The notes under the pieces are model-generated. The model was given only the letters and a program-made list of their open reading frames with translations. It searched no databases and was not told where the DNA came from. Positions 24,642 to 60,920 of a stretch of DNA of 64,000 bases are shown here, piece by piece (the stretch's first letter is position 1; the number at the start of each line of letters is the position of its first letter). Origin of the DNA: Nitrososphaeraceae archaeon (GTDB lineage Archaea; Thermoproteota; Nitrososphaeria; Nitrososphaerales; Nitrososphaeraceae); the NCBI GenBank assembly GCA_044870765.1, contig JBIOZG010000043.1, positions 40,080 to 104,079 on the forward strand, in the 5' to 3' direction. The position numbers and the translations under genes were made by a program.

Positions 24642-24738
24642 GGGCCCGTAGCTCAGCCAGGTAGAGTACCGGACTTTTAGCATTTCGGAAGAAAAGGAAG
24701 AAATCCGGCTGTCTCGGGTTCGAATCCCGACGGGCCCG
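24642..24738 (+). tRNA. tRNA-Lys(UUU) with a 23-nt intron at canonical 37/38 (24680-24702)
   Basis: GGGCCCGTAGCTCAGCCAGGTAGAG-TA-CCGGA-CTTTTA/A-TCCGG...GGTTCGAATCCCGACGGGCCCG. Confidence 0.95.
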
Positions 24739-24753
24739 TACTTTAATGCCGCC

Positions 24754-25260
24754 CTAATGACCAACTAGTTGTTTTCTGTGGCAATACAGAACTAGGAGTC
24801 TTTCGCATTCCAGTTTATAATATTCAAGCATTCTATTTGATGCGATTACCTGATTTCTCAAATCTATCAATTGAGTATTTGATCTGATTCTTTTTGATTC
24901 AAGCTGATTTATTTCATCAATAAGTTTGATCTGCCTATCTTCCAGTGGCATGCATTTCAGATCTTGGAACTTTTCATAGTATTCAATAGCTCTTTCTGCT
25001 GGAATATCCAATTCTATTGATACTTCTAGAGGTCGCTTATTCTTATCGTATAGAGCATACGCCCTAGACTCTTTACTCTTATTAACCAATTGGCTTTCAG
25101 AATCTTCTGTATCACCGGATTCTGACTTAATGATACTGCTCAGCGTTGAGGGTGAAAGGTGCACTTCTTTACAAATTTCTCTATATGTATGGCCGTTGTG
25201 GTACATGTGTAGAGCCAATTCTCTTTTCTCTGCCGGAGTTTCAGCAAATGGGTTTACCAT
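24754..25260 (-). CDS. Helix-turn-helix / coiled-coil protein
   Basis: GHTYREICKEVHLSPSTLSSII HTH, a second HTH-like segment (PLEVSIELDI) and a C-terminal coiled coil; first gene of the island. Confidence 0.75.
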   Translation of the reverse strand: MVNPFAETPAEKRELALHMYHNGHTYREICKEVHLSPSTLSSIIKSESGDTEDSESQLVNKSKESRAYALYDKNKRPLEVSIELDIPAERAIEYYEKFQDLKCMPLEDRQIKLIDEINQLESKRIRSNTQLIDLRNQVIASNRMLEYYKLECERLLVLYCHRKQLVGH

Positions 25261-25316
25261 GACTTATTTATATCTAAACGCCGTATTATTTTTCTATTTA
25301 TGTTACTGTTGCTACA

Positions 25317-25332
25317 TAGCTACATGTAGCTA
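25317..25332. promoter_or_regulatory. Perfect 16-bp palindrome, candidate operator
   Basis: TAGCTACATGTAGCTA, 57 bp upstream of the HTH gene start. Confidence 0.5.
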
Positions 25333-25426
25333 AAGTCTGTTACTTAGTGCTATAAGTTGAGTTTGAAAATAGTTTAATTTGTAAGTCTAATTAATTTTGT
25401 TTTAAATCCAAAAATTTCCTGGAATA

Positions 25427-25756
25427 TTATGAACCTACGCATCCAGCAGCAAACTTACTGGTCAGGAATCTATCATCGTCGCAGTCAAATGTGATACTCC
25501 CGTCATTTGCAAGACATGGCAGTTTTACATTCACAACTGAAACATCGCATGGTGGATATTTTGCTTGTTCCTCTGGAGGCGGTAGTGGTAATGGTAATCC
25601 CTTTTTCACGCTTGGACTCTGTCTCAACTTGCCTTTTTCAAGACATCCGTATGGATACTTTTCAATATGGAATTCTGGATCGTCACATGTAAAATAGGGT
25701 CCCTGAGGGCCACTACATGACGATTTGGATTGACATTGTCGATCATGCCAACTTAA
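25427..25756 (-). pseudogene. 5'-truncated Cys-rich repeat protein fragment
   Basis: The frame extends upstream of the called TTG with no start codon and shows two similar units, FTCDDPEF..YPYGC and FDCDDDRF..FAAGC. Confidence 0.45.
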
Positions 25757-25787
25757 CTATGTAAATATTGTTTGAATTCAAAACCGA

Positions 25788-26333
25788 CTAGGAATATGAC
25801 TTTATATCCAAAATTATTTTTGCCTTATCATTTAGTGGGATATTACGAAAGTCCGATACCGGCTTGCCATCCACTGAAGCTATAACATTTTCACCATCGA
25901 TATTGAGGCCTTTCCAAATGGCCAAAAATTCACTCAAAGTGTAGTTTCTTACTGCGTTGGATTCTATGTGAATCGTCCCGCTATAATCATGTGTGTGCAA
26001 TGGTGACATTCCTTGCATACCAAATTTATCTAAAGTATGGTCCGCAAACAACAATGGATCCGCAAATATTCCTGTCTGCGTTATTCCAATATTAGCAGGA
26101 ACGATTATTGGTTTTCCATTAATAGTGACATTTAGACTTACGTGATTATGAATCAACATGTTGTTGGGGGCAGCCGAACTTTCCACAACAGTTGAAAAGC
26201 CGAAAACGACTACAGCTATCAACGCAATAGTTACCTGAATCAAACCCAAAATGACTTTTTTTCTTACTGTGCAGCTTGCGATTAAGTAATGATTGTCGCT
26301 GGTTCGATTATCACTCAGTATTTTTGAATACAA
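25788..26333 (-). CDS. Secreted/membrane hypothetical protein, His-containing
   Basis: TM segment; HNH, IVPANIGI and PLHTHDYSGTIHIES motifs. Confidence 0.75.
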   Translation of the reverse strand: MYSKILSDNRTSDNHYLIASCTVRKKVILGLIQVTIALIAVVVFGFSTVVESSAAPNNMLIHNHVSLNVTINGKPIIVPANIGITQTGIFADPLLFADHTLDKFGMQGMSPLHTHDYSGTIHIESNAVRNYTLSEFLAIWKGLNIDGENVIASVDGKPVSDFRNIPLNDKAKIILDIKSYS

Positions 26334-26448
26334 TCTAATTTCTCATATTATAACCGCCGTTTTTAATCCTTATTGCATTTGGAAGTAGAGGCTATGAAGA
26401 ATTAAATGTCAGATATCAATAACATGGCTCGTCTTCGAGACGATTGAA

Positions 26449-27162
26449 ATGAAAATAATAACTCTTGCCGTATTGTGTCTGGTCTTAGTTTTAGGCTCAA
26501 GTCTCAGTGTTTCGAATTCAAACTCGGTAGTATTTGCCTTTCATTTTGGAACTACCAGGATATATTCGGACGTTTATACAGGCGCAGGGAATAGCAGCGC
26601 ACCGATAAATGAATTTGATCCTGAAAACAGGGAGATTTATACCGGTGAAACTGTTAAGTGGTCAAATCCAACGGCAGGGAAACCATATCCACATATTGTT
26701 ACCTTCATAGGTAATCAAAGTACTGAATTAAAATCAAAAATATCAAACATAACTATGACATTCCAGTCATCCAATTTGGAGTCTTTAATTAGCAATTTGA
26801 ATAAATCAATATCCAAAGACGATAAACAAACCGGTAATGCTAGTCAGACTTTCAATGGAGGGTCGATTATTTTTCCGTCCTTGGTAAATTCTTCGAACCT
26901 GTCTGTAACCTATCTGAATGCTAGTGGAAATCAGCTTTTTAAAGGTGCTGAATACAACTTTACGGGAAATGAAACCTATCTTAATTCAGGACTAATTTGG
27001 GCTGGCGGTGTGATACCGAACGGGTTTCTGAAAATAAATTCGTTTATAGTCACTTTTATGAATCCCGGAACCTATCATTACCAATGCTTGATATACCCAG
27101 AGATGAAAGGCATGATAACAGTTAAACCGAATCCAGGAATGTTAGGTATTAATATAAAATAA
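26449..27162 (+). CDS. Cupredoxin/plastocyanin-like secreted protein
   Basis: F.P....I..GETVKW.N....PH.VTF and PGTYHYQCLIYPEMKG.I.V; the second His ligand is replaced by Tyr. Confidence 0.8.
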   Translation: MKIITLAVLCLVLVLGSSLSVSNSNSVVFAFHFGTTRIYSDVYTGAGNSSAPINEFDPENREIYTGETVKWSNPTAGKPYPHIVTFIGNQSTELKSKISNITMTFQSSNLESLISNLNKSISKDDKQTGNASQTFNGGSIIFPSLVNSSNLSVTYLNASGNQLFKGAEYNFTGNETYLNSGLIWAGGVIPNGFLKINSFIVTFMNPGTYHYQCLIYPEMKGMITVKPNPGMLGINIK

Positions 27163-27300
27163 TTTTCTTATTTTAATTCAGCGGACCAATATTAACTAAA
27201 TTTTCGTCTTAGTAGTAATGCAACTATCGAAGTTCCAATAAATGGAGCAGGCCATAAAGTCCCAGTGATAACGCTATAACATTGAATACGAGGTCAAACA

Positions 27301-27356
27301 AAAAGCTAAATACAAACCAGTAGAACCCGGGTACATGCAAGGTTTGAATCCCGAGG
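27301..27356 (+). repeat. att-like site A1
   Basis: aaaagctaaatac..agtagaacccgggtacatgcaaggtttgaatcccgag; 3' part matches the tRNA-Lys T-arm GGTTCGAATCCCGA. Confidence 0.85.
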
Positions 27357-27437
27357 CATTCCACCCGTAACAGTTCATTAATATTTTATCTATAGTTACA
27401 TAGTTAGAACCAACGATTAGAAAAGTATTATCCCATT

Positions 27438-27574
27438 TTAGGACATGCCTGTAGGCGATTTCCTATCTTGACTATGTTCAACGGACACGTGATAGCTCAA
27501 CATCTCTGGAGTCTCAAAATTCTTGCACATCTTTCGCATCTGAGTTTCTTTGGCTTTACTTCTGCAGTTGACAT
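27438..27574 (-). pseudogene. Frameshifted small C2H2 zinc-finger gene
   Basis: MSTAEVKPKKLRCERC, then after a frame shift KNFETPEMLSYHVSVEHSQDRKSPTGMS*; 137 nt, not a multiple of 3. Confidence 0.6.
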
Positions 27575-27594
27575 CTTAAATCAATAATCCATTC

Positions 27595-29256
27595 CTAAAC
27601 CGTCATTGTATGGTATCCTGTGGCACCATTGGGGAAAGGGGGGTTCATCTCAGTGGTTTGAATCTTTCCTGTTTTGTCGGTTGCTCGAACTACAATGGCA
27701 TAATTTTCTTTATCCGGCGGTACATATCCGGCTGTCCACAGTACCCAAGTATACTGCGAGAGAGGATCCTTTACTTTTGCTGTTTTCCAGGTAGTCCCTC
27801 CATCAGTGCTAACCTCAATCTTTGCTATTCCCCTGTCTCCTGCAAATGCTATCCCTGCAATTGGAACTCTACTCTCGTAGGAGGAAGCTGCAGTTTCATC
27901 TAGCTTTCTGAATCTTTGTCTTGCCGGCGCCTGACCGGGAATTAAAATGGATGAACCAGTTTTGTCCTCAGCGTTATTAGCCCATCCTAGCCGCTGCCAA
28001 TAGCCCTCATAAACCTTATCTACTAATTCAATTTCTGTTATCCACTTTGGATTCATCATTCCGTATAGGCCTGGTACTATTGCCCTAACGGGGAATCCAT
28101 GTTTAGGCGTAAGTGGAGTATAATTCATATCATATGCAAGTATAGTCCCTTCCATTTGGGATCTCTCTATAGGTATTCCTACATCATAACCGTCGGCGCA
28201 TCTAAACACGACATATTTTACGTTTGGCTTAATTGCAGCCTTATCAAGCAGATAGCTTAAACGTACACCCTTCCAAAGAGCGGTGCTTATTAGTTCGCCA
28301 CCTACCTTGTTGCTTATGCATTCTAATGTTACATATTCCTCTACTGAAGGCATTGCCTTGATCTGGTCATAGTTAATGCTCAATGGTTTTTCGACTAGCC
28401 CCTTTATCGTAAGATTCCAAGACTTTGAATCGACTTGAGGAACTATTGGATTGATATCAATCCTGTAAAATAAATATGTTGGAGTAACTTCAGAAGCAAG
28501 AAGTGGTACTAGATTTGGATCTTCAAAGCCCTTAGGTCGAGGTCCGGTCTGTGGTAACAGTGGGGTAGTCGATTCTTGTTCTTGTTCCTCATTTTGTCTG
28601 GAAAGAAGTCTATCGACGCCAAGAAAAATTATCGGTAATGCTATTGCTGCGCCTGCTAATAGGCGAAGAAATGCTCTTCTACTATATTTTATGTCAATAG
28701 TGTCAATTGATTTATCTGGACTAGCATTAGGCTCAGGCTCAGGTACCTCCATAGATTTTTCCTTTGTTCTACCATGAAAGAATGACGAAAACGTAAATCC
28801 AAAGGCAAGCTGGGATGGAATAAGGGATAGCACTATAAGGGATATTGGCACGACCTGTATACCACTTCGTGATTGAATTAGCGTAACCAGCATTATTGCT
28901 ATAATTATGAAAATTATATATGACAAGGAAGAGGACAGTAAAGCCTCCAGCAGATATCCCCCACTTTTCAATCTAGAAAATAGCTTATCTAGTAAAATCG
29001 CTATAATTCCAAATGCTATTATATTTGCAATAATTGAACCAATGAACGCCGAATATTTAGCAAGAGGTCCGAAATTTTCAACTGCCTGAGATTCAAATTC
29101 TCCAGGTGTTACTGAAAACAATGCCTGAGACGCAACTTCTGGTAGAAACAATCCACCACTCGTTTCTTTTAGTATTATTGACACTGCAACAGCCACCGTT
29201 CCTGCCGCCAAGCCTGCAACAAAAGGAACAAGGAATCTGCGTGAATTTCTTGCCAC
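27595..29256 (-). CDS. Sulfite oxidase family molybdopterin oxidoreductase with N-terminal membrane domain
   Basis: TLECISN (Mo-ligating Cys), HGFPVR.IVPGLYG...KW, dimerisation domain IEVSTDGG.TW; internal SRRAFL twin-Arg-like motif. Confidence 0.9.
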   Translation of the reverse strand: MARNSRRFLVPFVAGLAAGTVAVAVSIILKETSGGLFLPEVASQALFSVTPGEFESQAVENFGPLAKYSAFIGSIIANIIAFGIIAILLDKLFSRLKSGGYLLEALLSSSLSYIIFIIIAIMLVTLIQSRSGIQVVPISLIVLSLIPSQLAFGFTFSSFFHGRTKEKSMEVPEPEPNASPDKSIDTIDIKYSRRAFLRLLAGAAIALPIIFLGVDRLLSRQNEEQEQESTTPLLPQTGPRPKGFEDPNLVPLLASEVTPTYLFYRIDINPIVPQVDSKSWNLTIKGLVEKPLSINYDQIKAMPSVEEYVTLECISNKVGGELISTALWKGVRLSYLLDKAAIKPNVKYVVFRCADGYDVGIPIERSQMEGTILAYDMNYTPLTPKHGFPVRAIVPGLYGMMNPKWITEIELVDKVYEGYWQRLGWANNAEDKTGSSILIPGQAPARQRFRKLDETAASSYESRVPIAGIAFAGDRGIAKIEVSTDGGTTWKTAKVKDPLSQYTWVLWTAGYVPPDKENYAIVVRATDKTGKIQTTEMNPPFPNGATGYHTMTV

Positions 29257-29395
29257 GTATTTTGATCGAATTTTAACGATTTAAGGTTTCTTTCGATTCA
29301 GTGTACTCTGAACTATTGCCTGATTAGTAGGAAGCTCCGCAGTTACAAGTGCCTATTTGGTTTATTGCTCTAGCTATCTAATCTACACTTCACAA

Positions 29396-29770
29396 TTATG
29401 ATGAATCATTTTGAGCCTTCGATATAGTAGTCGACATATTCGGTTCCATACTCTTCATCATGCCCATCATGTCTTTTTCGTGCATCTTAATTCCTAGATC
29501 CGTCATATTTAGCTGCATAATTGCGCCCTTGACGTCTCCTTCATTTAGGTCCATGATCGCCTCCATTAAATGCATTTTAGCATTATCCAGTGACGATCCA
29601 AAAGTCATATTGCCACCTGGCATCATCATTGTCTGATTATTGACAGCAGACATGTTTTCTTTTTCGTTTACAGATAGGTCTTGACTGAAGATGACTTTTG
29701 ATGTTACTGCTATCAGAACAGTAACACCTATGGCAATCACCAATACGCTAATACTCATTTGGTTTGACAT
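29396..29770 (-). CDS. Met-rich secreted hypothetical protein
   Basis: Signal peptide followed by a strongly Met-enriched helical domain. Confidence 0.7.
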   Translation of the reverse strand: MSNQMSISVLVIAIGVTVLIAVTSKVIFSQDLSVNEKENMSAVNNQTMMMPGGNMTFGSSLDNAKMHLMEAIMDLNEGDVKGAIMQLNMTDLGIKMHEKDMMGMMKSMEPNMSTTISKAQNDSS

Positions 29771-30055
29771 TGCTAAAAGTAGTAATTATGTCCAAAACAT
29801 ATTATATAAAGAGTATCCAAATGCGTAACGAGACATTGAAATGTACCAGAAATACTTTTGCCGATATTAATGCCGATATTCCCTGCGTCAGGACATTCTC
29901 TTGCTCTACCATCCAAAAATTTTTTTATTAATAGTAAACCTATCTTGAATCCTACCGGAAAAAATCAAGCTATGGAATATAATATCTAATCTTGGAATAA
30001 ATCGACAAATTGTTAGTGGTACTCTCTTAAATACTAAATAAGTCATACAATAGGA

Positions 30056-31375
30056 ATGCATTGGACACCCTCAGATTATACATCAGTGAAGGCAAGCTAT
30101 TCTAAACTAATGGATGCAATAACTATCAGACCAAGGGCAGAATCAATCTTTGCTGAGCAGGCAATAGGACGGGTTCTATGGACTGATATAATATCGCATA
30201 CCGATATCCCATCGAGTAACTGTTCTCACATGGATGGATTTGTTGTAAAATATAACGATATCAGTAGGATATCTCAACATAGACCAATAAAACTAAGGGT
30301 AGTGCCTAGAAGAAAAGATGACATGAATGAAAACCAGGTCCTGTTTACAGGACAAACTATTAGAGTCTCAACTGGCGAAGTCTTACCACGTTTGGGAGAT
30401 ACAGTTATCCCTGTCGAATATACACAGTTAGATGCTAAAAATAATTCAATTATAATTCAAAGGGTGTCGGCTAAAGGATCGTTTGTATCTCATAAGGGTA
30501 GTGAGATCGCATGTAAGGATTTGTTACTAACCAAAGGTCACATTCTTAGGGCACAGGATTTAGCATTAATCGCAATGCTTGGGATTCGAAAGCTAAAAAT
30601 TTTTAAAAAACCAAAAGTTGCAATAATTCCTACAGGCAATGAACTTACTGAGGACATTGCTGACATAAAGCGTGGAAAAATATTAAATACTAATAGTAAA
30701 GTCATATCTAATTTAATTGAAAAATTAGGAGGTACTCCTTTAGATCTGGGAATTACACCTGATAACATTCACAAGATAAAAAACAAAATTAGACTTGCGT
30801 TGTCTCAAAGTGATATCATATTAACAACGGGCGGATCTTCCGTTGGATTGCTAGATCTTGTTGCTGAATCAATAAACTATATTGGAAAGCCAGGAATTCT
30901 GGTTCACGGAATAAAACTTGATCGTGGAAGGGTAACGGGCCTCGCTGCACTCCACAACAGACCAGTAATTATTCTTCCCGGACCCATACAAGGAGCTGTG
31001 AACGCCTTTATTGTATTTGCTCAGCCACTAATTAGATTTATGTTGGGTCTGTATCCTTTTAATAAACCATTTATTTCAGCAAAGCTTACTGAAAATTGGA
31101 ACGCCCGAAGAAAATTTCAAGACTTTACAAAAATAATATATGTGAAGTTAACGTTATCAGAATCAGGTGAATTTCATGCAAAACCCATAACCGGGGAAAC
31201 TACGGACATTACAGTGCTAACAGGGAGCAATGGCTTTATTTTGGTACCCGAACGCTCGACTATGCTAAAAAGGGGGCAAAAAGTTAAAATAAACATTTTT
31301 CCTGGTCTGTCTTTTTCATCAGGTAACCCAGTAGAGTTTCCTTACCTGGCAGAAAGATCGTTCATTCCGTTTTAG
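30056..31375 (+). CDS. moeA: Molybdopterin molybdenumtransferase
   Basis: S.MDGF, STG..LP..DTVIPVE, IIPTGNEL, TTGGSSVG..D and LPG motifs. Confidence 0.93.
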   Translation: MHWTPSDYTSVKASYSKLMDAITIRPRAESIFAEQAIGRVLWTDIISHTDIPSSNCSHMDGFVVKYNDISRISQHRPIKLRVVPRRKDDMNENQVLFTGQTIRVSTGEVLPRLGDTVIPVEYTQLDAKNNSIIIQRVSAKGSFVSHKGSEIACKDLLLTKGHILRAQDLALIAMLGIRKLKIFKKPKVAIIPTGNELTEDIADIKRGKILNTNSKVISNLIEKLGGTPLDLGITPDNIHKIKNKIRLALSQSDIILTTGGSSVGLLDLVAESINYIGKPGILVHGIKLDRGRVTGLAALHNRPVIILPGPIQGAVNAFIVFAQPLIRFMLGLYPFNKPFISAKLTENWNARRKFQDFTKIIYVKLTLSESGEFHAKPITGETTDITVLTGSNGFILVPERSTMLKRGQKVKINIFPGLSFSSGNPVEFPYLAERSFIPF

Positions 31376-31382
31376 AAATACA

Positions 31383-32153
31383 TCATTTAAACAACCTAGT
31401 AGCCAGATTAATCCCTGCGACAGCTACTATAATTCCTATGATAAAAATTAATTTTTCGTGACTCAATTTTAATGCCCCCAACCTGGAACCTAGAAATCCC
31501 CCAAGAAGGACTACAAAGGCCAATGGTAAAATCAGTACAAAATCAACTTCCTGTGTGATTGAATGGGCAACAAGTCCGCTAACCGAATTTGTGAGTATGA
31601 ATAAACTAGCTGAGGCCGCAACTGTCTTTGGATTTGCTAGACCGGTTAATATCAAGATTGGTGATAACCAGATGCCCCCACCAATTCCAACAAGGCCCGA
31701 AACAGTCCCTAAAATAGCACCTAATGGTAATGTGATTAATGAAAGCCTAGGTAGACTTAGGTTTAATTTTCTTATTTTCTCCCGCCTTATTTTTATCTGG
31801 TTACCACTTAATAGTAGCATGGCCGAAGCTGAAAAAAGAGCAATTACGAAGATTAGTATGAGAGTTTTTTCTGGTAGTATAGTAGAACCTCCAATAAAAG
31901 CAAATGGTACTGAAATAAGTAACGGAATAGATATACGAAGTGATAGGTGACCTGCCCTTAAATAATTGAAGAGCGCTATTGAAGCAACAACTATATTCAG
32001 AGCTAATGACACAGGAGGGATGGTGAATAGATTTACCCCAACAAGAACTAGTATGGCAATATAGCTGCTTCCTCCTGCAAATCCAACACTAGAATAAATA
32101 AAACTTATTGCAAAGAAAACTGGAACAAGTATTATCAGTAATTGCTCATTAAT
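31383..32153 (-). CDS. TauE/SafE (TSUP) sulfite exporter family permease
   Basis: YSSVGFAGGSSY (upstream of the called GTG 32012) and SGLVGIGGGIWLSPIL repeats; probable non-canonical start near 32153. Confidence 0.87.
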   Translation of the reverse strand: MNEQLLIILVPVFFAISFIYSSVGFAGGSSYIAILVLVGVNLFTIPPVSLALNIVVASIALFNYLRAGHLSLRISIPLLISVPFAFIGGSTILPEKTLILIFVIALFSASAMLLLSGNQIKIRREKIRKLNLSLPRLSLITLPLGAILGTVSGLVGIGGGIWLSPILILTGLANPKTVAASASLFILTNSVSGLVAHSITQEVDFVLILPLAFVVLLGGFLGSRLGALKLSHEKLIFIIGIIVAVAGINLATRLFK

Positions 32154-33081: not shown

Positions 33082-33088
33082 CTTTTCT

Positions 33089-33505
33089 CTACTCAAGTAA
33101 TACTCCATCAGCCCATTTCTGACTTTCTTTAGATATTTCCTTTTTCCAAATAGGTACCCGAGTTTTCACATTATTTAGAACATATTTGCATGCCTCAAAA
33201 GCTTCATGCCTATGCTCTGAAGAGACCCCAATTATAATACTGGTCTCACCGGCTTTTATATTACCGATCCTATGAATTGCAACTAATTTTTTTATTCCCC
33301 ATTTTGTTTGTGCTTCATTTTCAATTTCCCTCAATTTTTCTTGTGCCATCTCATTGTAAGTCTCATAATAGATTTCTGAAACGTTACCAAACCTTCCATG
33401 ATTACGGACGTTGCCTATGAAAATTGATAATGCACCTGCAGAATTGTCCTCTAGTTCAAACATTATCTCTTGCAAATTTAGACGGTTATTGGTAATACTA
33501 ATCAA
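33089..33505 (-). CDS. moaE: Molybdopterin synthase catalytic subunit
   Basis: GA..IFIG.VR, HRIG, S.HR.EAFEAC and K..VPIWKKE motifs. Confidence 0.95.
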   Translation of the reverse strand: MISITNNRLNLQEIMFELEDNSAGALSIFIGNVRNHGRFGNVSEIYYETYNEMAQEKLREIENEAQTKWGIKKLVAIHRIGNIKAGETSIIIGVSSEHRHEAFEACKYVLNNVKTRVPIWKKEISKESQKWADGVLLE

Positions 33506-52444: not shown

Positions 52445-52485
52445 ATAAAATTAGTTCTCAAAAAGGATTCTAGGATAATAGAAAA

Positions 52486-52593
52486 ATGAGTAAAGAACTA
52501 ACAGAATTTGATTCAGATCCTCATTCCCTCTTCCTATTTGCATTAAATTCACCATCAACGAAGGAAAATATGCTTAAGAAAACAAATTCTTAG
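52486..52593 (+). pseudogene. Probable tyrosine integrase relic (N-terminal ~27 codons)
   Basis: MSKELTEFDSDPHSLFLFALNSPSTKE, with KY restored by one added A. From memory this resembles the DP.SLF..AL.SP.TKEKY start of Nitrososphaerales integrases. Lies 41 bp after site C1. Confidence 0.6.
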
Positions 52594-52769
52594 ACGTAAA
52601 ATAAAGGTTCTTGAGTTTTGAGAATACAGGTAATATTTTACTTGAATTCTGTTCTATCAATTAAAGTCAGACATTCAGAATTAGGTTTCAGGAATTAGTT
52701 TGAAATAAGTAGTTTCCTGTCCCCGAAGGCCCAAGGTCATTAATGAAATGATTTATCACAATCGCCTAA

Positions 52770-54074: not shown

Positions 54075-54086
54075 TTATCTTTACCC

Positions 54087-55394
54087 TCACAATCTATTTG
54101 GAAGATCATGTGATACTACTGGATCAACTGATATCCAGTTTTTATCAGTGAGGTCGATCCCAGTCGCCTCTTTGAATGAAGCTATGAAATGTTCCACCAA
54201 TGGTTCTACAATGTCTAGAAAGATCTTTAAGTTATCTATTGGACTTTGCGTATTCCAATAAGTTTCGTCTTTAGAAAGAATGCATAGAATAAAGTCTGTC
54301 AAATCATTAGCACAGTCAATATAAATTTTGGTTTTACTTATTTCCGATGGTGCACCTATTTTATTGAAGAGAATCGTGTTTCTTGCAGAGTCTACAATAT
54401 CCTCGAATCTTGTCTGTTGACTAACGCCTGTTTCCTTGGATGTTAGCAAGACCAACCAAAAGCCAGCCAACTTCCAAACAGTAGAAGAGACTGTATTGTG
54501 TGCATTCGTACCGCTTCTGAATCTTTCAGAAGATCTCCTTAAAAGTTCTATGGATGTGCGTATTGAGGCCAACGTTTGTTGAGATTCTTTTTTATTTGCA
54601 ATTGCCTCAATCGTTTGTACAACCCTTCTGTAGTTGTAAAAATTTTCTATTTTTGCTACAAGCTGGAGTGCAATAGACATTCCAGGCGAAATCTGCATAT
54701 CCGATAACTTAAGTCCAGAATAGGAGCCGTCTATTCGCATACCCAACATTTTCAAAGATACAGCCGTGCGTTGTCGCCTTCTTGAGCTGACTCCCTTATT
54801 GACTTCATTTATCATAATCTGGGAAATTCCTCCTGCCCAGTCGTCATAAAGAATAGGAAACTTACCACCAAATTCTTGATCACTCAAAATTCCTCCTGAA
54901 ATTTTGTCAATGTCTGTTCTCTCAATAAACCAGTTCCAAAATGCATCCGCGTATAATATGTTCTTGATTTTTTCGGTCGAAGTTCCGTCCAGCATCTTTA
55001 TGGCTCTGTCTCCCTCCAAGGAAAGATCAGAGCAGGGTAAGCAGCAATCGTATTGATAAGATGATATAGCCCCCGTTGCCTTGGACTCTGACTTTTTTGA
55101 GGGTTGCGTACCGGAACTCGATGATTTGGGATCTATAGAATCTTTCAACATATTACGAACACTGTCGGTAGCGGTTAACCCTCGTCTAGTACGCGGGAAA
55201 AAGCGCAGATAAAGCGCGATTAAAGTCTGAAACGCTTCTTCTAGCCCTTGTCGAGGACTATCAGTGATTCCGGAAAGTATTCTGTCCCAGCAGGCTTCGA
55301 TCAAGGGAGGGTATGGTGGTATTTGATTATTTGACAACGCATCTATAATTTCCCCTTTGACAGTCTCTATTTGTTGATCAGTATTGTTAGACAT
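54087..55394 (-). CDS. Hypothetical protein
   Basis: 435-aa ORF, helical, ILYADAFWNWFIER...GKFPI...RQR..LG segment. Confidence 0.82.
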   Translation of the reverse strand: MSNNTDQQIETVKGEIIDALSNNQIPPYPPLIEACWDRILSGITDSPRQGLEEAFQTLIALYLRFFPRTRRGLTATDSVRNMLKDSIDPKSSSSGTQPSKKSESKATGAISSYQYDCCLPCSDLSLEGDRAIKMLDGTSTEKIKNILYADAFWNWFIERTDIDKISGGILSDQEFGGKFPILYDDWAGGISQIMINEVNKGVSSRRRQRTAVSLKMLGMRIDGSYSGLKLSDMQISPGMSIALQLVAKIENFYNYRRVVQTIEAIANKKESQQTLASIRTSIELLRRSSERFRSGTNAHNTVSSTVWKLAGFWLVLLTSKETGVSQQTRFEDIVDSARNTILFNKIGAPSEISKTKIYIDCANDLTDFILCILSKDETYWNTQSPIDNLKIFLDIVEPLVEHFIASFKEATGIDLTDKNWISVDPVVSHDLPNRL

Positions 55395-55788
55395 ATACTT
55401 CCTATTTTATGCGAGTAATTAAGCATTTTTATTAATCATTTTCTTACGCGATGAGGATTTCATTTTCGTAGTAAAGATATTTTAGAATTAGAAGTAAAAT
55501 AGGGGATCAAATTTGTACAACCTATATTCTAAACAAAAATAAATCAAATAAGGAACAAGCTCAATTTCCTAAAATAATTAGGCTTGATGAGAATTTCTCT
55601 GGGTCATAACAAATCAGCAATATAATAAATATGCCATAGTTTTATGACTCTCAATTTTTGTATTGTTCAATTTGGAAGTTTGATAAGAAGCAGTGATATC
55701 TAGATATGTAGTTTTGACGTTCTGGATATTTTTGAGCGTGTGTTGAATACTTTGTTACTACTCATAAAGATAAACGAAAAAGAAATAA

Positions 55789-57069
55789 TCAGTATCTGTT
55801 TTGCAAAATGGCTTTCTGAATTTGAGACGATTGCCCTAATTTTAATAGCCATTCTGTCATCATTTTATCTAATATATCTTCACTTAGGTCACCCTTTTCT
55901 CTTACTAACCGAAAGACTCCAAGCTGGGCGCACGGGCGAAGTCCTTTAATATTAAGCGTTCCAGTTTTTGAAGACTCAACTATTCGTTCAATGTTTTCGG
56001 GTAGTAGAGATTTCATGTCGAACAAATTTGGCAATTTCTTCCCATCTAAAACGCTAAACTTTGTGCTCAATAAGGCTCTTGCTACAATCGGAACATACTC
56101 TCTACACACCTTAAGAACATCTGAATTTTTGGAAGCAAATTGAAGGGGATAAAGTGTATCCCATTCCTGCTTCCATAAATCCCACTGCCCTCTCCCCCAT
56201 AATTGCTTGCACCATTCAATCGATAGCAATATTCTGATATAGATGGCTGGATGTGGATCATCACTGGAGAAATGGAAGACTCTATTCGGAGGCAAAGATA
56301 ATAGTTCCTTAATGCTTAACGTTTGAGCCATTCCTGCACAACAAAATCCCCAGAAATCGGGACCTATTTCTGAACTCCAGAGACTGTACAATTTTATTAT
56401 TTCTCTAGGTGCGCCCTGATGTATAAGGGCTGCCTCAAATACTTTGGGCAAAGTATGATTCATACCCAGCCTCGCTAAGGCATCATGTCCTACTTCATGA
56501 ATTACTGATGTCAAATCATACTTTGTAATAAATCGAGAATAGGGAATCTGAATTAGAGGAACGGGATTCTTAATTCCCCCAGGAAATGTGGCCCCAGCTC
56601 TAATTATTAATGCGCCAAAACCTCGTTCACATGATACTATAGGTTTCTCCAATTCAGTAAAAATACGATGATTTATGGATAAAGCATCTTCAGCCAGTCT
56701 ATCACATCCCTTCAACTGACTTCCCAAAGAGTGTATCCTCCGTTGACTCAATATATCCATATAAGTATCAAAGAAAACCATAATGTCCGTTAATTCCATT
56801 TCGATTCTCCCTAACAGAACGTTTAGTTTACGTGCAACATCTGGAATATGGAGAAATGGTAAATATCCTCCTCCATGGATCTTCAAATGAGAGATTAATC
56901 GATTCTCAACCGCGGCAAGTGGTAACTGAATCGCATCCCACTGATTCTGATCTATGTTTTCGGTTTGAGATAGCCCTAGAATTTTCCTAAGTGTGGATAA
57001 AAACTTAATTCTCCTGAGAGTAGTCTGGTAACGCCTTTGAAGGTTATTAACATCAATATACAAGGACAA
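55789..57069 (-). CDS. Putative HEXXH zinc metallopeptidase
   Basis: VIHEVGH, downstream W..EI..D (third ligand, gluzincin-like) and DPHP...R (M48-like). Confidence 0.78.
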   Translation of the reverse strand: MSLYIDVNNLQRRYQTTLRRIKFLSTLRKILGLSQTENIDQNQWDAIQLPLAAVENRLISHLKIHGGGYLPFLHIPDVARKLNVLLGRIEMELTDIMVFFDTYMDILSQRRIHSLGSQLKGCDRLAEDALSINHRIFTELEKPIVSCERGFGALIIRAGATFPGGIKNPVPLIQIPYSRFITKYDLTSVIHEVGHDALARLGMNHTLPKVFEAALIHQGAPREIIKLYSLWSSEIGPDFWGFCCAGMAQTLSIKELLSLPPNRVFHFSSDDPHPAIYIRILLSIEWCKQLWGRGQWDLWKQEWDTLYPLQFASKNSDVLKVCREYVPIVARALLSTKFSVLDGKKLPNLFDMKSLLPENIERIVESSKTGTLNIKGLRPCAQLGVFRLVREKGDLSEDILDKMMTEWLLKLGQSSQIQKAILQNRY

Positions 57070-57084
57070 ACAATTATTGGGTAA

Positions 57085-57861
57085 TTAGTATTTGCGCCTT
57101 CGCCTGACTACTACATATTCGCCGGGTCCTAGGTAGATTGTTCTCCTTCTTTTACCTCTTCTGCGAAATGATCTGGTGGCATTTTGATTTCTTATTCTAG
57201 AAGCTGCACTACGGAATGCTTGAGAAGCCAATTGATTTGCAGCAACCGGATCAGTGGTAGCAGCTTTATTCATGTTGTTTAAAATATTTTCATACATAGC
57301 TTCGCTAAGTTGGGTAAATTCTTTCCATCTGTCGAGGCTGTTTCCAGCAATTTCAGCTGTTTCTGAAATTCCCAAAAGCTTCAAAAGCGGACGAGCTGGG
57401 GCTAAAGCTGGATGTACTGTAATAATATTAAGTAAGGCGCCTCTGAGTGGCTCCCTTGCCATCATTCTTATCAATATCAGTGCGCTCTTTATTATTTTCA
57501 ATGGATTTCCTGGAATTGCTCCTCCGACCAATTTACTCAAGAGATTCTTAACTACTCCTCCAGTTAATTTGCCAAGAAAATATTGTTTCTCGACTTCATT
57601 GAGTATTCCATCAACTTCTGCATTTCTTGATTCGGGTGATTCAAATTGTTTTTCTTGTAATTCAAGAAAGCGCTGAGCTAGATAATTTGTAGTAGAATCA
57701 GATTCCATGGTCGCTTCTGCACCTTGTTCCATTTCCAGTTCAAATTCCTCATTTGTTTCTCCTAAAGGCTCTTCAAATTCCTCATTTGTTTCTCCTAAAG
57801 GCTCTTCAAATTCCTCCAAGCTTTCCAATTCACTTTCGTATTGTCCTTCTAAAGTAGACAT
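57085..57861 (-). CDS. Hypothetical protein with acidic repeat N-terminus and Arg-rich C-terminus
   Basis: EEFEEPLGETN repeats, amphipathic basic helices, RRRGKRRR...RRRRKY tail; 15 bp from the peptidase gene. Confidence 0.82.
   Translation of the reverse strand: MSTLEGQYESELESLEEFEEPLGETNEEFEEPLGETNEEFELEMEQGAEATMESDSTTNYLAQRFLELQEKQFESPESRNAEVDGILNEVEKQYFLGKLTGGVVKNLLSKLVGGAIPGNPLKIIKSALILIRMMAREPLRGALLNIITVHPALAPARPLLKLLGISETAEIAGNSLDRWKEFTQLSEAMYENILNNMNKAATTDPVAANQLASQAFRSAASRIRNQNATRSFRRRGKRRRTIYLGPGEYVVVRRRRKY
57739..57816. repeat. 33-bp coding tandem repeat
   Basis: ttcaaattcctcatttgtttctcctaaaggctc x2.4. Confidence 0.9.
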
Positions 57862-58259
57862 CTGTACACTTGTACAGGGTGTAAATAAATAAGGATTGCT
57901 GCTATGAAGGCATTTTCATATAAATAATTTGAATGTAATGACAAAGAAAAGAAATGCAATACGAGATAGAGCGAATTTCACCTTCAATTCAAATGACAGA
58001 ATATTTGATTCATACAAAGCTAAACTTTAATGAATTTTTAAGCGTCAATCGATCCTAGAATTCATAAAAACCTCTTATGTAGAATACGAGACATTTGGAA
58101 GTTCTAAAAAATATAATGCATAAACTGAAATTTTATTCCTGCATGGGGAACGATACCACGAATTTATTTATTGGTATTGTTTGGTAGCCGCCAATAATCT
58201 CGAATACTTAATAATATATCTGTGTCTTGTATACATGATTAACTCGGGATGTATAGTGA

Positions 58260-59072
58260 GTGACTTTGAGAAAAAATAGAAGCAGGGTTCCTATGCCCGT
58301 TTTGTTTACATGCCCCCATGGCGGTAGAGGCAGATTAAAAGAAACCCCCGAAAGGCAGATTCGCAATTTGCCAAGCCCACCATGCAGTAGAAAAAAATTC
58401 AGTACAAAAAAGGATCGTCGTACAAAGGAGATTACAGAGAAAATTATTGAAAACATAATTAGATTAGGAAAAAGGCAGGTCTACCAACAAATAGCGGATA
58501 TCCATCGCGCATACGTGGATCTAAATAGAATACCAAGATGCGCTTTTGAACCATCGATAGATGATCTGCCCGCTGAAGTTTATGGCAAATATCACAACAA
58601 CATTATAGAAATAATCAACAATATGTATTTACAAAATAATACAGGACTACGCTTCCTCTTTGATATTCACGGTACGGAGGAGACAGAAGTCAAACTAGAA
58701 GATGGTTCTACTGTAAAGGTTGATGTTTTTTTCGGAACTGATAAAAAACATAAAAATACAATTTGTGGACTGTTGAAGATCAATCCTAATGCCCTGTGGG
58801 ATAACAACACTGGGTTGATACGATTGTTACAGATAAAAGGATACAATACATTCCCACGGGCAATAAACGAGAATGAATATTATAAATTGGATGGAGGGAC
58901 AACAATCCAAAAATATGGCGGATGCAATGTCAAGAAGAGGGTAGAGGCAATTCAGATTGAAGTCGGCCCACGTTTTCGGTTGAAAAAGAACTTGCGTGAA
59001 CGTTTCGCAAATGATATTGCTGAATGTATTTTCAAATTTTCATCTCGGTACATAGAAAAGAAATCCGAATGA
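58260..59072 (+). CDS. N-formylglutamate amidohydrolase family protein
   Basis: TCPHGG, D..T, R.YVDLNR, YH, FDIHG, GG.TI and AIQIE motifs. Confidence 0.8.
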   Translation: MTLRKNRSRVPMPVLFTCPHGGRGRLKETPERQIRNLPSPPCSRKKFSTKKDRRTKEITEKIIENIIRLGKRQVYQQIADIHRAYVDLNRIPRCAFEPSIDDLPAEVYGKYHNNIIEIINNMYLQNNTGLRFLFDIHGTEETEVKLEDGSTVKVDVFFGTDKKHKNTICGLLKINPNALWDNNTGLIRLLQIKGYNTFPRAINENEYYKLDGGTTIQKYGGCNVKKRVEAIQIEVGPRFRLKKNLRERFANDIAECIFKFSSRYIEKKSE

Positions 59073-59075
59073 CGG

Positions 59076-59106
59076 GGAAGCAAAATTTTTAGATGTTTTT
59101 GCTTCC
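59076..59106 (+). terminator. Stem-loop directly after the amidohydrolase stop codon
   Basis: ggaagcaaaa...ttttgcttcc, a 10-bp inverted repeat. Confidence 0.4.
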
Positions 59107-59932
59107 AGAATAACTTCCCCGCTTTTTACTGTATACAATGGCACTACATTGTCTATCGCGTTCTCATACATCACTCACATTATCTGAAAAATTTGTACTA
59201 AATATATTTCGGCGCCGAAAAAATTACTAGCTTAGGCGCCATCAACAAATTACTGGGAATGTACATAAAAACTATTACATCAATCATCTTCATCCTGGAA
59301 TCAACTATACAAACTGCCACACCAATGTATTACATGTTACTTATTAAAGAACAGAGCCGATCAGACAATAAACGATCAAGCAATATGTAATATCAAATGT
59401 AAAATGTCAATTAAAATGTACTTTTGAAACACATTATAATTTTAAATTATATTTTTATATTAATTGTTTTGTATTTTTGACAACTTTTAAATTGGAAAAA
59501 TAATTCATATATGAAAATTCTTGACTCTAGAAATCACATATGACAAAAAGAATCAGATATTATTACTGATAGGTAACACATTACCTTATTCAAGTTAGAT
59601 TTTCGGAGTCTATCAGGTGTTATTAGAGTAGATATCTAAATGGGTTAAGAACAGGATCAAAAAATGGTTTTCTGATGATCATTATAAGATACATGATAAG
59701 ATACTCGCTTAAACCCGACAATATGATACGAATTGTATATAATAAAAAGGTAGTTGCTGATGTTACCGTTACCCATATTGTGGATGTTTAATTACTTGAA
59801 GATGCTATTCATCATAATCTTATATCACAGTTTCTTTTGGTAATTGTTTACCACTCATTTTGCATCCAGAAATGCGTGGGAATTTAAGGTATTTTAAATC
59901 AAATTTGATAGATAGAAATGGGAGTTTTGAAG

Positions 59933-60012
59933 AAAAGTTTAAAGCTTACTAATCCTATTTAATACCAAGAATCCAATTTTAGAACCGATAGCGTCGTGGG
60001 TACCGACGAGCC
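59933..60012 (+). repeat. att-like site B2
   Basis: aaaagtttaaagctta...agaatccaattttagaaccgatagCGTCGtgggtacCGACGagcc. Confidence 0.88.
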
Positions 60013-60048
60013 TGTTTTTAGCTATTTTTTCGTTACCAATATGACATA

Positions 60049-60525
60049 TCACATTGGTCTTATTTCCATACCGTATTTAGCTACTAAATTAGGGATCCTT
60101 TGGATTTGTTCTTTGGTATATGGTGGAGGCTTTACATTAATGTCCGATACTTCAATGCCTATGTCTACGAAAAACTGCTCCATGCCCGGTGGAGATAGTA
60201 TTGTTATTAGTTTTGCAATCTCATCACTTTCATTTTTGAAAGTATGCAAAACATTTGGCGGAATATTAATGAACGTTCCGGGCTTAGCTTCAATTCTTTC
60301 CTTGTCCACCGTGAATGTTAATCGGCCTTCAACTAAGTAAAAACCTTCATGTTCACGTGTTTGAATGTGTGGAACAGGACCGGCTCCCGGAAAAACTTTA
60401 CACTCAATGAAGCTGTATGTTCCACCTGTGTCTTCCTTTGATGCAACAATTGTATTAATTTGACCAGGTACAGCAATATGTTTTCCTTTGTTGGGTTCAA
60501 CGATTTTTATTTTATTATTATTCAT
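60049..60525 (-). CDS. Cupin domain protein (quercetin dioxygenase-like)
   Basis: T.G.YS..E..V.PG.GP.PH....HEGFY..EG and IPPNVLHTFKN, PPGMEQFF. Confidence 0.88.
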   Translation of the reverse strand: MNNNKIKIVEPNKGKHIAVPGQINTIVASKEDTGGTYSFIECKVFPGAGPVPHIQTREHEGFYLVEGRLTFTVDKERIEAKPGTFINIPPNVLHTFKNESDEIAKLITILSPPGMEQFFVDIGIEVSDINVKPPPYTKEQIQRIPNLVAKYGMEIRPM

Positions 60526-60660
60526 ATTTGTTACAATTCTTATAATCGTAAGAAATAGATTTAAGCATTAAATCTAATGGCTAGGAAGAGTTAGTTCACT
60601 TTCAATCCATATTGTAATGCTTTTAATGTTATCGGGTATATCAAATTAGTCGATTTATTG

Positions 60661-60730
60661 CCATAAGAAAAAGCTAAATACGAAGTTAATAGAATCCATG
60701 CAAGGTTCGAATCCCAATCCCAATGAGCTC
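60661..60730 (+). repeat. att-like site A5
   Basis: ccataagaaaaagctaaatacgaagttaatagaatccatgcaaGGTTCGAATCCC-aatccc-aatgagctc. Confidence 0.85.
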
Positions 60731-60739
60731 TAGAGATTA

Positions 60740-60816
60740 GAAAACTTTAAAGCTTATTAATCCGTTTTAGAAGAAGGATCCTAAATTAGAATCGATAGCG
60801 TCGTGGGTACCGACGG
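60740..60816 (+). repeat. att-like site B3
   Basis: aaaactttaaagctta...aggatcc...ttagaatcgatagCGTCGtgggtacCGACGg. Confidence 0.85.
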
Positions 60817-60830
60817 TTAAGACCTCTGAA

Positions 60831-60920
60831 GAAAAACTATAATTAAATAGTTTAGTATTATGTATTAGAATCCTGCATTTGAACTAATTTTATTGCGGAA
60901 ACCGACGTCCGAACACTTGA
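60831..60920 (+). repeat. att-like site C2
   Basis: aaaaactata..tatgtattagaatcc..actaattttattgc..aCCGACGtccgaacacttga. Confidence 0.8.

What the first reader, a model, noticed from the sequence alone, without database searches (positions are those of the whole stretch)
24712..60920. tRNA-Lys-anchored array of ten co-oriented att-like sites dividing the island into cassettes (candidate archaeal integron-like system)
Seen: ten non-coding elements downstream of tRNA-Lys, all in the tRNA orientation and all intergenic. Subfamily A lies at 27301, 35844, 38984, 42261 and 60661 (AAAAGCTAAATA..AGTAGAACCCTAGTACATGCA + GGTTC[G/T]AATCCCGA). B lies at 39058, 59933 and 60740 (TTTAAAGCTTA..AGAATCC..AGAACCGATAGCGTCG-7nt-CGACG). 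C lies at 52361 and 60831 (TATGTA.TAGAATCC..ACTAATTTT.TTGC..CGACG). All share an A-rich head and an AG[A/G]A[C/T]CC box, and end in sequence matching the tRNA 3' end (GGTTCGAATCCCGACGGGCCCG). Segments between sites are coherent gene modules of about 0.65-10 kb. Established: tyrosine integrases target tRNA 3' ends and leave a duplicated tRNA fragment at the distal junction; integrons keep cassettes separated by co-oriented hairpin sites. Inference: one recombinase family repeatedly delivers integrase-free cargo cassettes to this tRNA, building an ordered array.
Basis: partly seen in the sequence, partly recalled or inferred. Interest (0 to 1): 0.9.

Follow-up and report, generated by a model that had tools for sequence, protein, structure and literature searches.

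The report
Integration-junction array behind tRNA-Lys
Behind a lysine tRNA gene of a soil ammonia-oxidising archaeon lies a one-directional row of recombination junctions left by small integrase-driven gene cassettes, which shows how this group of archaea swaps accessory genes.

Summary
All ten sites exist, all on the tRNA strand, and far above chance. Each is an ~85-nt conserved left arm: a TATA-like head, GAAYCC boxes that copy the tRNA T-arm halves, then CCGACG. Similarity ends sharply at CCGACG. That point equals G67^G68 of tRNA-Lys(UUU), 6 nt before its 3' end.

Comparison of 136 sites shows the arm travels with the upstream cassette. Neighbours change exactly at the core. Two relatives keep synteny up to the tRNA and then carry other cassette orders.

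The window is not integrase-free. A 35-aa N-terminal integrase stub lies 50 nt after site C1 (52486-52590). C1 repeats the tRNA 3' end and is the only palindromic, complete att-like site. Full-length relatives of this tyrosine integrase sit directly behind tRNA genes, tRNA-Lys included.

Best reading: a pile-up of hybrid att junctions from tRNA-Lys-specific integrative elements, most now without integrase. It resembles an integron only in layout. There are no attC-like hairpins and no cargo orientation bias. I saw no excision or circles. Whether cassettes move in trans remains open.

The parts
24641..24739 (+). tRNA-Lys(UUU) gene with intron. It is the anchor (attB/attL). The crossover point is between 24732 and 24733 (CCCGACG^GGCCCG).
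24733..27356 (+). Unit 1: it starts with GGCCCG, which completes the tRNA. It holds an HTH_23 protein (24754-25260, -), a 181-aa ORF and a 237-aa ORF, and ends with the A1 arm (27301-27356).
27357..35909 (+). Unit 2: molybdopterin oxidoreductase, MoeA, TauE, MoaC/MogA-type fusion, MoaE, MoaA and MOSC. It ends with the A2 arm (35851-35909). The first 218 nt (27357-27574) are a separate repeated mini-module.
35910..39041 (+). Unit 3: DUF763, a 91-aa zinc-ribbon ORF and a 310-aa ORF. It ends with the A3 arm (38985-39041).
39042..39134 (+). Empty 93-nt unit that consists of the B1 arm only (head at about 39058, core end 39134).
39135..42317 (+). Unit with a CHRD protein, a multi-copy 176-aa gene and small ORFs. 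It ends with the A4 arm (42262-42317).
42318..52436 (+). 10.1-kb stretch with beta-propeller/PsbP_2 proteins, a 265-aa gene unit (47862-48915; 97.4% identical to G016) and DUF1428. Probable degenerate junctions seen by eye near 47840, 48900, 49068 and 49175. It ends with the C1 arm (52346-52436).
52381..52484 (+). Complete att-like palindrome centred on ATCGACG^GGCCCG: 29-nt inverted arms at 52395-52423 and 52444-52472, and outer 10-nt arms.
52486..52590 (+). N-terminal stub (35 aa, then a stop) of a tyrosine-integrase gene. It is 66% identical to residues 1-35 of the full-length integrase of metagenome locus L151.
52437..60008 (+). Unit that begins with GGCCCG, the integrase leader and the stub. 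It holds four ORFs (52770-57861, -) with no family and no DNA match in the genus, and an FGase-like ORF. It ends with the B2 arm (59933-60008).
60009..60725 (+). 717-nt unit with a cupin gene (60049-60525, -). It ends with the A5 arm (60667-60725).
60726..60907 (+). Two empty units: the B3 arm (core end 60815) and the C2 arm (core end 60907).
60908..64000 (+). Next unit (PsbP_2 protein at 61015-61845 and small ORFs). Its start is shared with the flank of an A-type junction in G016. The array goes on in contig C10.

Best explanation
The region is a pile-up of hybrid attachment junctions made by site-specific recombination at the 3' end of tRNA-Lys(UUU). The agents are small integrative elements of one tyrosine-integrase family. 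In its autonomous form an element reads: GGCCCG plus a leader, the int gene, cargo, then an ~85-bp P arm that ends in CCGACG. Joined as a circle, the two ends form a ~100-bp palindromic attP. Recombination at CCGACG^ with the tRNA, or with the core of a unit already in place, inserts the element and leaves its P arm as the next junction. Repeated insertions, loss of the int genes (leaving N-terminal stubs) and further exchange between cores produced a co-oriented array. Most units are now cargo plus arm, or an arm alone. Shown here: the junction anatomy, the crossover position to within a few bases, that the arm belongs to the upstream unit, reshuffling between relatives, and the link to the integrase family. 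Inferred: the circular form, the order of events, and that integrase-less units still move with integrase supplied in trans.
For: (1) Co-orientation: 10 of 10 sites in the window lie on the tRNA strand. 30 of 31 multi-site contigs are uniform among 136 sites, and 74 of 81 metagenome loci. (2) Among 302 in-register pair alignments of 55 sites, 254 end between -10 and +9 of the core end. (3) 25 pairs share the upstream unit but not the right flank. In the 12 clearest, the upstream unit is 91-99% identical and the arm 88-99%. 21 of the 25 break at -5 to +9, mostly at 0 or +1. A further 25 pairs share only the right flank, up to 97% identical, while their arms are 48-87% alike and the upstream units unrelated. 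(4) G016 and G010 are collinear up to the last tRNA bases and then differ. The Moco unit lies 2.8 kb from the tRNA here and about 25 kb from it in G016. (5) The unit 47862-48915 is 97.4% identical to G016, while the core flank is 86.5% identical. (6) The tRNA 3' end is repeated at C1, 27.7 kb away. C1 is a palindrome centred on the core and is followed after 50 nt by an integrase start. (7) In 12 of the 14 best genus loci the homologous int gene starts shortly after the 3' end of a tRNA gene on the same strand, behind tRNA-Lys(UUU) in G032:C19 and G046:C73. In G008:C2 a pseudogene follows a B site with the same leader as C1. (8) R, H-x-x-R, H and Y are invariant in four of these integrases (the motif itself is recalled). 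(9) The GAAYCC boxes in the arms equal the two halves of the tRNA T arm (by eye).
Against: No excised circle, empty site or deletion variant was seen. The only reads on hand were assembled contigs, and the two joints that looked like such forms are explained by paralogous loci. This genome has no intact integrase of the tRNA-Lys subfamily. It has only stubs and two 33-36% identical paralogues away from any site. Nine of the ten junctions are half sites without symmetry, so they may be inert scars. Only 1 of 193 units bounded by two sites holds any integrase piece, which fits poorly with simple decay of autonomous elements. The conserved TATA-like head has no shown role: cargo orientation is unbiased, 65 opposite against 48 same. 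Some homology borders of cargo (27566, 39840) lie away from any recognisable site. Six sites on C54 have no tRNA within C54:1-30000. The genome is a 59-contig MAG, so the order of cassettes could be partly an assembly product.
Confidence: 0.72

Rival explanations
1. A true integron-like capture platform. tRNA-Lys acts as the primary site. Integrase-less cassettes, each carrying an ~85-bp arm at its end, are excised and inserted as discrete circles by a resident integrase acting in trans. The outward promoter-like head has a role in this cycle.
For: 192 of 193 units bounded by two sites hold no integrase piece. 13 of 90 intervals are empty 90-93-nt units. 7 of 20 clusters of shared units differ in a neighbour on at least one side, and 1 differs on both. 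An integrase-less 1.05-kb unit is 97.4% identical between species whose core flank is 86.5% identical. An intact integrase sits at the end of a seven-site array in L151 and next to the tRNA in G032.
Against: No circles were seen. Nine of the ten junctions lack the second arm that the complete C1 site has. About a fifth of unit starts (GGCCCG 36, GGCTCA 32, GCTCCA 14 of 429) look by eye like decayed integrase leaders, which suggests units derive from int-bearing elements. Cargo orientation is unbiased. No integrase is fixed beside the tRNA in G000, G016 or G010.
Confidence: 0.2
2. The elements are small RNA genes or promoter/terminator modules that happen to lie between gene modules. Recombination plays no part.
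For: Every arm starts with a TATA-like head similar in form to the boxes about 32 nt upstream of the tRNA genes of this genome. The last 30 nt of B arms are very well kept across the genus.
Against: There is no Rfam match even at E up to 1. Common B variants (GCGGCG, GTCACG) break the small hairpin without compensation (by eye). Breakpoints fall at single-base resolution at the core. The tRNA 3' end is repeated at C1. Integrase genes begin right behind GGCCCG-type junctions.
Confidence: 0.04
3. They are MITE-like transposon copies or an assembly artefact of a repeat.
For: The repeat is short and multi-copy, and many copies lie on short contigs of fragmented MAGs.
Against: The alignments show no terminal inverted repeats and no target duplications. 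Orientation within contigs is strictly uniform. Independent contigs of run X1 bridge four junction regions. The same architecture recurs in 26 of 37 other genomes of the genus, with 0 hits for the reversed-pattern control.
Confidence: 0.03

Closest known systems
Tycheposon islands of Prochlorococcus (bioRxiv 10.1101/2020.12.28.424599; passages read)
   Same: Cargo-carrying elements with tyrosine recombinases integrate at tRNA genes. Successive integrations push older elements further into an island. Partial tRNAs and fragmented integrases are left behind. Cargo is metabolic.
   Different: The host is an archaeon. The units are much smaller (median 1.4 kb; 13 of 90 intervals are about 91 nt). 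Each keeps a conserved ~85-nt arm with a TATA-like head. The tRNA match is only 6-16 nt. No replication genes were found among the 30 ORFs scanned. Integrase pieces are rare (1 of 193 units). Whether the integrases belong to the tycheposon clade was not tested.
Integrons and CALINs (clusters of attC sites without an integrase). The archaeal integron paper was seen only as a search listing and the start of its abstract; the rest is from my own knowledge.
   Same: A co-oriented array, with the recombination site at the distal end of each cassette. Similarity ends at the crossover. Empty cassettes exist. Arrays mostly lack a nearby integrase.
   Different: The sites are not folded palindromes (9 of 10). 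There is no attI/Pc/intI platform. The anchor is a tRNA gene. Cargo orientation is unbiased. Units are often multi-gene, up to 10 kb.
Cryptic integrated elements of Thaumarchaeota (Krupovic et al. 2019, PMC6563490; passages read)
   Same: Integration into the 3'-distal part of tRNA genes, short att sites (median 17 bp, down to 8 bp), tyrosine integrases, and known reuse of sites to form arrays.
   Different: Those elements measure 2.6-98 kb and are defined by their integrase. In the passages I read, no dense array of integrase-less units with a conserved arm family is described. The paper's supplementary tables could not be opened.
Lambda-type attP/attB logic and IMEX elements at dif (from my own knowledge, not from a call)
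   Same: A complex attP with arm sites on both sides of a short core recombines with a simple target. Hybrid junctions remain. IMEX elements pile up in tandem using a recombinase they do not encode.
   Different: Arm-binding, accessory factors and the use of a host recombinase are all untested here.

Membership tests
Integron | attC sites that fold as imperfect palindromes, recombined as hairpins | tested here: not met
   Single-strand DNA folds of 110 nt around each core: 9 of 10 junctions have z between -1.9 and +0.9 and no pairing across the core. Only C1 is palindromic, and there the crossover is at the centre, not at one end.
Integron | intI gene with attI and promoter Pc at the head of the array, and cassette ORFs oriented for expression from Pc | tested here: not met
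   The head of the array is a tRNA gene. There is no PF00589 match on this contig. The first ORF after a site is opposite in 65 cases, same in 48 and absent in 23, of 136 sites.
Integron | Co-oriented cassettes, each with its site at the distal end, and exchange at one point | tested here: met
tRNA-targeting tyrosine-integrase integrative element | Tyrosine recombinase with catalytic R, H-x-x-R, H/W and Y | tested here: met
   Met for relatives: PF00589 at 47.5, 39.2 and 40.8 bits for int_C11, int_C59 and the L059 integrase; the residues are invariant in 4 aligned integrases. int_L151 scores 25.9 bits, just under the cut-off of 27.1, and the G032 integrase gives no PF00589 hit at E up to 0.01. 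In the window only a 35-aa stub remains.
tRNA-targeting tyrosine-integrase integrative element | Integration in the 3' part of a tRNA gene with the tRNA restored, and the tRNA 3' end repeated at the far junction | tested here: met
   Three genomes have different DNA after CCCGACG, but each begins with GGCCCG. The repeat lies at 52430-52442.
tRNA-targeting tyrosine-integrase integrative element | Excision or integration activity (circles, empty sites) | not testable with these tools
   Only assembled contigs of public runs were on hand.
Tycheposon | Integrase of the tycheposon clade, with replication-module hallmark genes | tested here: inconclusive
   No primase, helicase or polymerase among the 30 window ORFs scanned with Pfam. 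No phylogeny of the integrase was made.
MITE / insertion sequence | Terminal inverted repeats and target-site duplication | tested here: not met
   None visible in the alignments of 55 sites with their flanks. This was by inspection, not by a dedicated program.
Known RNA family (Rfam 15) | Match to a covariance model | tested here: not met
   Only the tRNA reaches the gathering score in the window. Nothing at E up to 1 in 59850-61000 or 38900-39250.

The most novel reading that the evidence does not exclude
A gene-capture system of Archaea that works like an integron but is built from other parts. A tRNA gene serves as the primary site. Hundreds of integrase-less cassettes each carry an ~85-bp one-sided arm with an outward promoter. 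A tRNA-specific tyrosine integrase supplied in trans excises, shuffles and transfers them between species of one genus of soil ammonia oxidisers.
Probability: 0.3. Interest if true: 0.85.

Novelty: new variant of a known kind. Interest (0 to 1): 0.62.

Why it matters
Soil Nitrososphaeraceae are major nitrifiers, and the genomes searched here for this genus are fragmented, MAG-like assemblies of 10 to 470 contigs. How they gain accessory metabolism is poorly understood. Here whole modules sit in exchangeable units whose borders can be read to the base. One example is a complete molybdenum-cofactor pathway with a molybdopterin oxidoreductase and a TauE-type exporter. The B-type arm was found in 26 of 37 other genomes of the genus and in 4 of 163 genomes of the other genera of the family that were searched. 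The arms therefore give a simple marker for the flexible genome of this clade. They also explain why its assemblies break behind this tRNA. If integrase-less units move in trans, this would be an archaeal counterpart of integron-type gene capture. In five full-text searches I found no paper that describes this.

Tried and rejected
Circular or excised forms: four runs were laid on 24600-44599. The joint 39134->27362 with CATTCG between the sides equals the paralogous junction on contig C52, so it is not a circle. The joint 35904->39094 (runs X5, X10) is best read as a paralogous A+B tandem, not a deletion. The joint 28920->40909 has only 20 letters on one side. The RNA run X15 covered only 39941-40607 and 42609-44599 and nothing on the sites. 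With contigs of a small-share run this says nothing about transcription of the arms.

Viral origin: exact A and B core patterns gave 0 stretches in viral contigs.

Right arms as 3' ends of other tRNAs: none of the 36 tRNA matches of the genome ends in TCCGAAGAC, CATTCGCACC or AACCCTAAAC. Rejected.

Left arm as a split integrase N-terminus (SSV type), or as promoter plus start codon for fusion proteins: B and C arms have no start codon. The ATG in A arms gives peptides of 11-20 codons. Read by eye. Rejected.

A B-arm hairpin kept by covariation: the common variants are not compensatory (by eye).

Integrases next to the arrays: no hits in loci L001-L052, and none in the G016:C1 or G010:C22 stretches, which were among the targets. 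The intact integrases of G000 on C11 and C59 have no site nearby.

G001, a distant member of the genus: no site in 25 kb around its tRNA.

The four ORFs at 52770-57861 and others: nothing in Pfam, NCBIfam, PADLOC or the protein atlas. PDB sequence search with int_L151: nothing.

The tallies include the unpublished genomes G037 and/or G038. No claim here rests on them alone.

Full report
THE OBSERVATION. The window holds one tRNA gene at 24641-24739 on the + strand. From the sequence I read an anticodon loop CUUUUAG with an intron, that is tRNA-Lys(UUU). The A motif occurs 5 times and the B motif 3 times with up to 3 mismatches, against 0.00 expected in 100 shuffles.

The elements share one plan:
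- a TATA-like head (GAAAACTTTAAAGCTTA in B and C; AAAAGCTAAATA in A);
- about 22 nt further on, a box AGAATCC or AGAACCC;
- a type-specific stretch;
- the core CCGACG.
A carries GGTTCKAATCCCGASG, a 16-nt match to the tRNA T loop and stem. B carries CGTCG-TGGGTAC-CGACG. Only C1 goes on with GGCCCG, the last six bases of the tRNA. The 13-mer CCCGACGGGCCCG with up to 2 mismatches occurs only in the tRNA and at C1, against 0.05 expected.

WHERE THE REPEAT ENDS. I aligned 55 sites from this genome and from the arrays of two relatives. Of 302 in-register pair alignments, all start between -160 and -10, most of them between -89 and -21, and 254 end between -10 and +9 of the last G of CCGACG. So the conserved unit is a left arm of about 85 nt with a sharp right end. 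The DNA to its right is mostly unique. By eye, the boxes AGAATCC, AGAACCC and GGGTTCT are copies of the two halves of the tRNA T arm (GGGTTC|GAATCCC), which suggests binding sites of a protein that also recognises the tRNA gene. That is inference.

THE GENOME AND ITS RELATIVES. The window is part of contig C43 of a 2.0-Mb, 59-contig assembly. More sites lie on C10, C36, C49, C52, C53, C54, C4, C21 and C24. The end of C43 overlaps the start of C10 by 110 identical bases, so the array continues there with five more sites. Among 136 sites in this genome and in loci of relatives, 30 of 31 contigs with more than one site have all sites in one direction. In 120 metagenome loci the figure is 74 of 81.

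The exact B core occurs in 34 stretches of the 185,579-species genome collection. 33 of them are in MAGs titled Nitrososphaeraceae, Nitrososphaerales, Nitrososphaeria, Thaumarchaeota or Thermoproteota, and one is in a bin titled 'bacterium'. With up to 3 mismatches it is in 26 of 37 other genomes of the genus and in 4 of 163 genomes of the other genera searched. The reversed-pattern control gave 0 everywhere. The larger genomes of the genus (G001, G018, G046, G047, G050) gave none.

RECOMBINATION AT THE CORE. G016 (flanking protein 94% identical) and G010 (80%) are collinear with the window up to the tRNA and then differ. In all three genomes the DNA after CCCGACG differs but begins with GGCCCG, so the tRNA stays whole. 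Both relatives have co-oriented A, B and C sites behind the same tRNA.

The Moco unit (window 27570-33912; 91.5% identical) lies about 25 kb from the tRNA in G016 and 2.8 kb from it here. The 265-aa gene unit (47862-48915) is 97.4% identical, while the core flank (22110-24738) is 86.5% identical. That points to recent transfer of a unit without an integrase.

Among 108 sites with full flanks there were two kinds of informative pair:
- 25 pairs share the upstream unit but not the right flank. In the 12 clearest pairs the upstream unit is 91-99% identical, the arm 88-99%, and the right flank 26-55%, which is noise. 21 of the 25 break between -5 and +9, mostly at 0 or +1.
- 25 other pairs share only the right flank, up to 97% identical. 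Their arms are 48-87% alike and their upstream units unrelated. Some of these pairs have arms of different types, and there similarity starts at 0 to +12.

So the arm and core belong to the upstream unit, and the exchange point is at or just inside the right edge of CCGACG. That is between G67 and G68 of the tRNA.

THE INTEGRASE. Pfam found no integrase among 30 ORFs of the island. The whole-genome PF00589 search gave three genes on other contigs. However, a metagenome locus (L151) carries a seven-site array that ends in ...CCCGACG|GGCCCG, followed after 50 nt by a full-length 411-aa integrase. Its first 35 residues match, at 66% identity, an ORF stub at window 52486-52590, 50 nt behind the C1 core. 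The leaders are alike too (GGCCCGTAATAAAATTAGTTCTC...GGATTCTAGG).

The C1 junction is the only one of the ten that is symmetric. It has 29-nt inverted arms (76% complementary) and outer 10-nt arms (90%) around ATCGACG^GGCCCG. Its single-strand fold gives z = -3.9 and -3.4 in two windows. The other nine give z between -1.9 and +0.9. I read C1 as a complete att site (a C-type P arm plus the P' arm of an integrase unit) and the other nine as hybrids.

Integrase pieces on the same strand follow 8 junctions (9 site rows) of 429 sites. They begin within 150 nt of the core in 8 rows and at 597 nt in one. Five rows start GGCCCG and one GCCCGT. The family is in 37 of 40 genomes of the genus, with many fragments. 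In 12 of the 14 best loci the gene starts shortly after the 3' end of a tRNA gene on the same strand. This is tRNA-Lys(UUU) in G046:C73 and G032:C19, where a 424-aa ORF is intact. In G008:C2 a pseudogene follows a B site. Four aligned members keep R, H-x-x-R, H and Y. PF00589 scores are above the cut-off for three members. int_L151 scores 25.9 bits against a cut-off of 27.1, and the G032 protein gives no hit.

UNITS. Ninety intervals between neighbouring sites have a median of 1383 nt. Thirteen are 90-93 nt, which is an arm and little else. The longest is 10,119 nt. In the window the units hold:
- an HTH protein;
- a full Moco set with a molybdopterin oxidoreductase and TauE;
- DUF763;
- a CHRD protein;
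- beta-propeller and PsbP_2 proteins;
- a cupin;
- several ORFs without any family.
Cargo orientation relative to the array is unbiased. Of 193 units bounded by two detected sites, one holds an integrase piece. 46 pairs are the same unit. 26 of these have the same neighbours on both sides. 9 pairs, in 7 of 20 clusters, differ on at least one side, and one pair differs on both.

WHAT WAS NOT SEEN. Only assembled contigs of public runs were available. They show contigs that follow the A2 arm and diverge exactly at 35909 (2 contigs in X5, 3 in X10). They also bridge four junction regions in X1. They give no circle and no empty site, and the candidate joints are paralogous loci. No RNA contig lay on a site, but that run covered only four of thirty bins. 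No Rfam family matches the sites. Six sites on C54 have no tRNA in the first 30 kb of that contig. An A-like site with an integrase fragment lies next to uvrB on C24, as does an integrase with a B site in G016:C85. So not every array is anchored to an intact tRNA in these assemblies.

READING. The data fit repeated site-specific integration by tRNA-Lys-specific tyrosine-integrase elements, followed by loss of int and exchange between cores. This is the logic of tycheposon islands and of array formation by integrases noted for Thaumarchaeota. It differs in having very small units and a conserved one-sided arm. The array resembles an integron in layout only.

Three features keep the integron-like reading alive at about 0.2-0.3: the scarcity of integrase remains, the empty units, and the very high identity of integrase-less units across species. 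In that reading, cassettes are moved in trans. The role of the TATA-like head is unexplained. My guess is that it drives int across the joined site in the circular form. This is untested.

LITERATURE. Five full-text searches listed no paper that describes such an array in Nitrososphaerales. I read passages of PMC6563490 and of the tycheposon preprint. I saw the archaeal integron paper and the review of archaeal tyrosine recombinases only as listings. Supplements were not available.

Noticed in passing
window 39841-40561 (ORF 39946-40476, +): A 176-aa coiled-coil-like protein of no family (only a weak ZorA-like PADLOC hit, E 4e-4). It is multi-copy in nearly all genomes of the genus and present on C20 and C54 of this genome. 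It is the only part of 24600-42608 covered by RNA contigs of run X15 (summed depth 163).
   Followed up: partly
window 63065-63192, 63214-63365, 63379-63621: Three short stretches, the last a 92-aa ORF, recur at 73-91% identity on many contigs of many genomes of the genus. This is another repeat family in the island.
   Followed up: no
window 52770-57861 (-): Four ORFs (434, 435, 426 and 258 aa) with no Pfam, NCBIfam or PADLOC match, no atlas hit for the one tried, and no DNA match in 39 other genomes of the genus. They lie in the unit that starts with the integrase stub.
   Followed up: partly
window 27357-27574 and G000:C52:16355 onward: A 218-nt non-coding mini-module directly after the A1 core is repeated after a B-type core on contig C52. 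Public contigs carry the C52 form.
   Followed up: partly
G000:C24:918-1640 (-) and G016:C85 (L059): Next to uvrB, away from any intact tRNA, lies an A-like site with a tRNA-Lys 3' remnant, followed by a broken integrase gene. In G016 the same locus holds patatin, an intact 297-aa integrase, TspO and a B site ending in GGCCCG.
   Followed up: partly
G000:C11:24732-25220 (-), G000:C41:22-366 (-): N-terminal integrase fragments of the same family lie directly behind other tRNA genes (tRNA-Pro on C11). Stubs behind tRNAs seem to be a general feature of this genome.
   Followed up: no
G000:C11:52555-52644: The last ~29 residues of the intact integrase on C11 are encoded a second time about 690 nt downstream of the gene. 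This may be an att duplication inside the 3' end of int.
   Followed up: no
G000:C36:16565-16640 (-): A tRNA that I read by eye as Arg(CCU) seems to carry an intron in the D-arm region. Three B sites lie 7.7-9.2 kb downstream on the same strand, the last with a GGCCCG right flank.
   Followed up: partly
relatives G017:C127, G015:C23, G008:C149, G018:C3: In four relatives the contig ends within a few hundred bases after the gene that precedes this tRNA. Assemblies tend to break at this island.
   Followed up: no
window 39839/39840: Two contigs of run X10 follow the CHRD gene up to 39839 and then run on unlike, and genus matches also end there. No recognisable site lies at this border.
   Followed up: no
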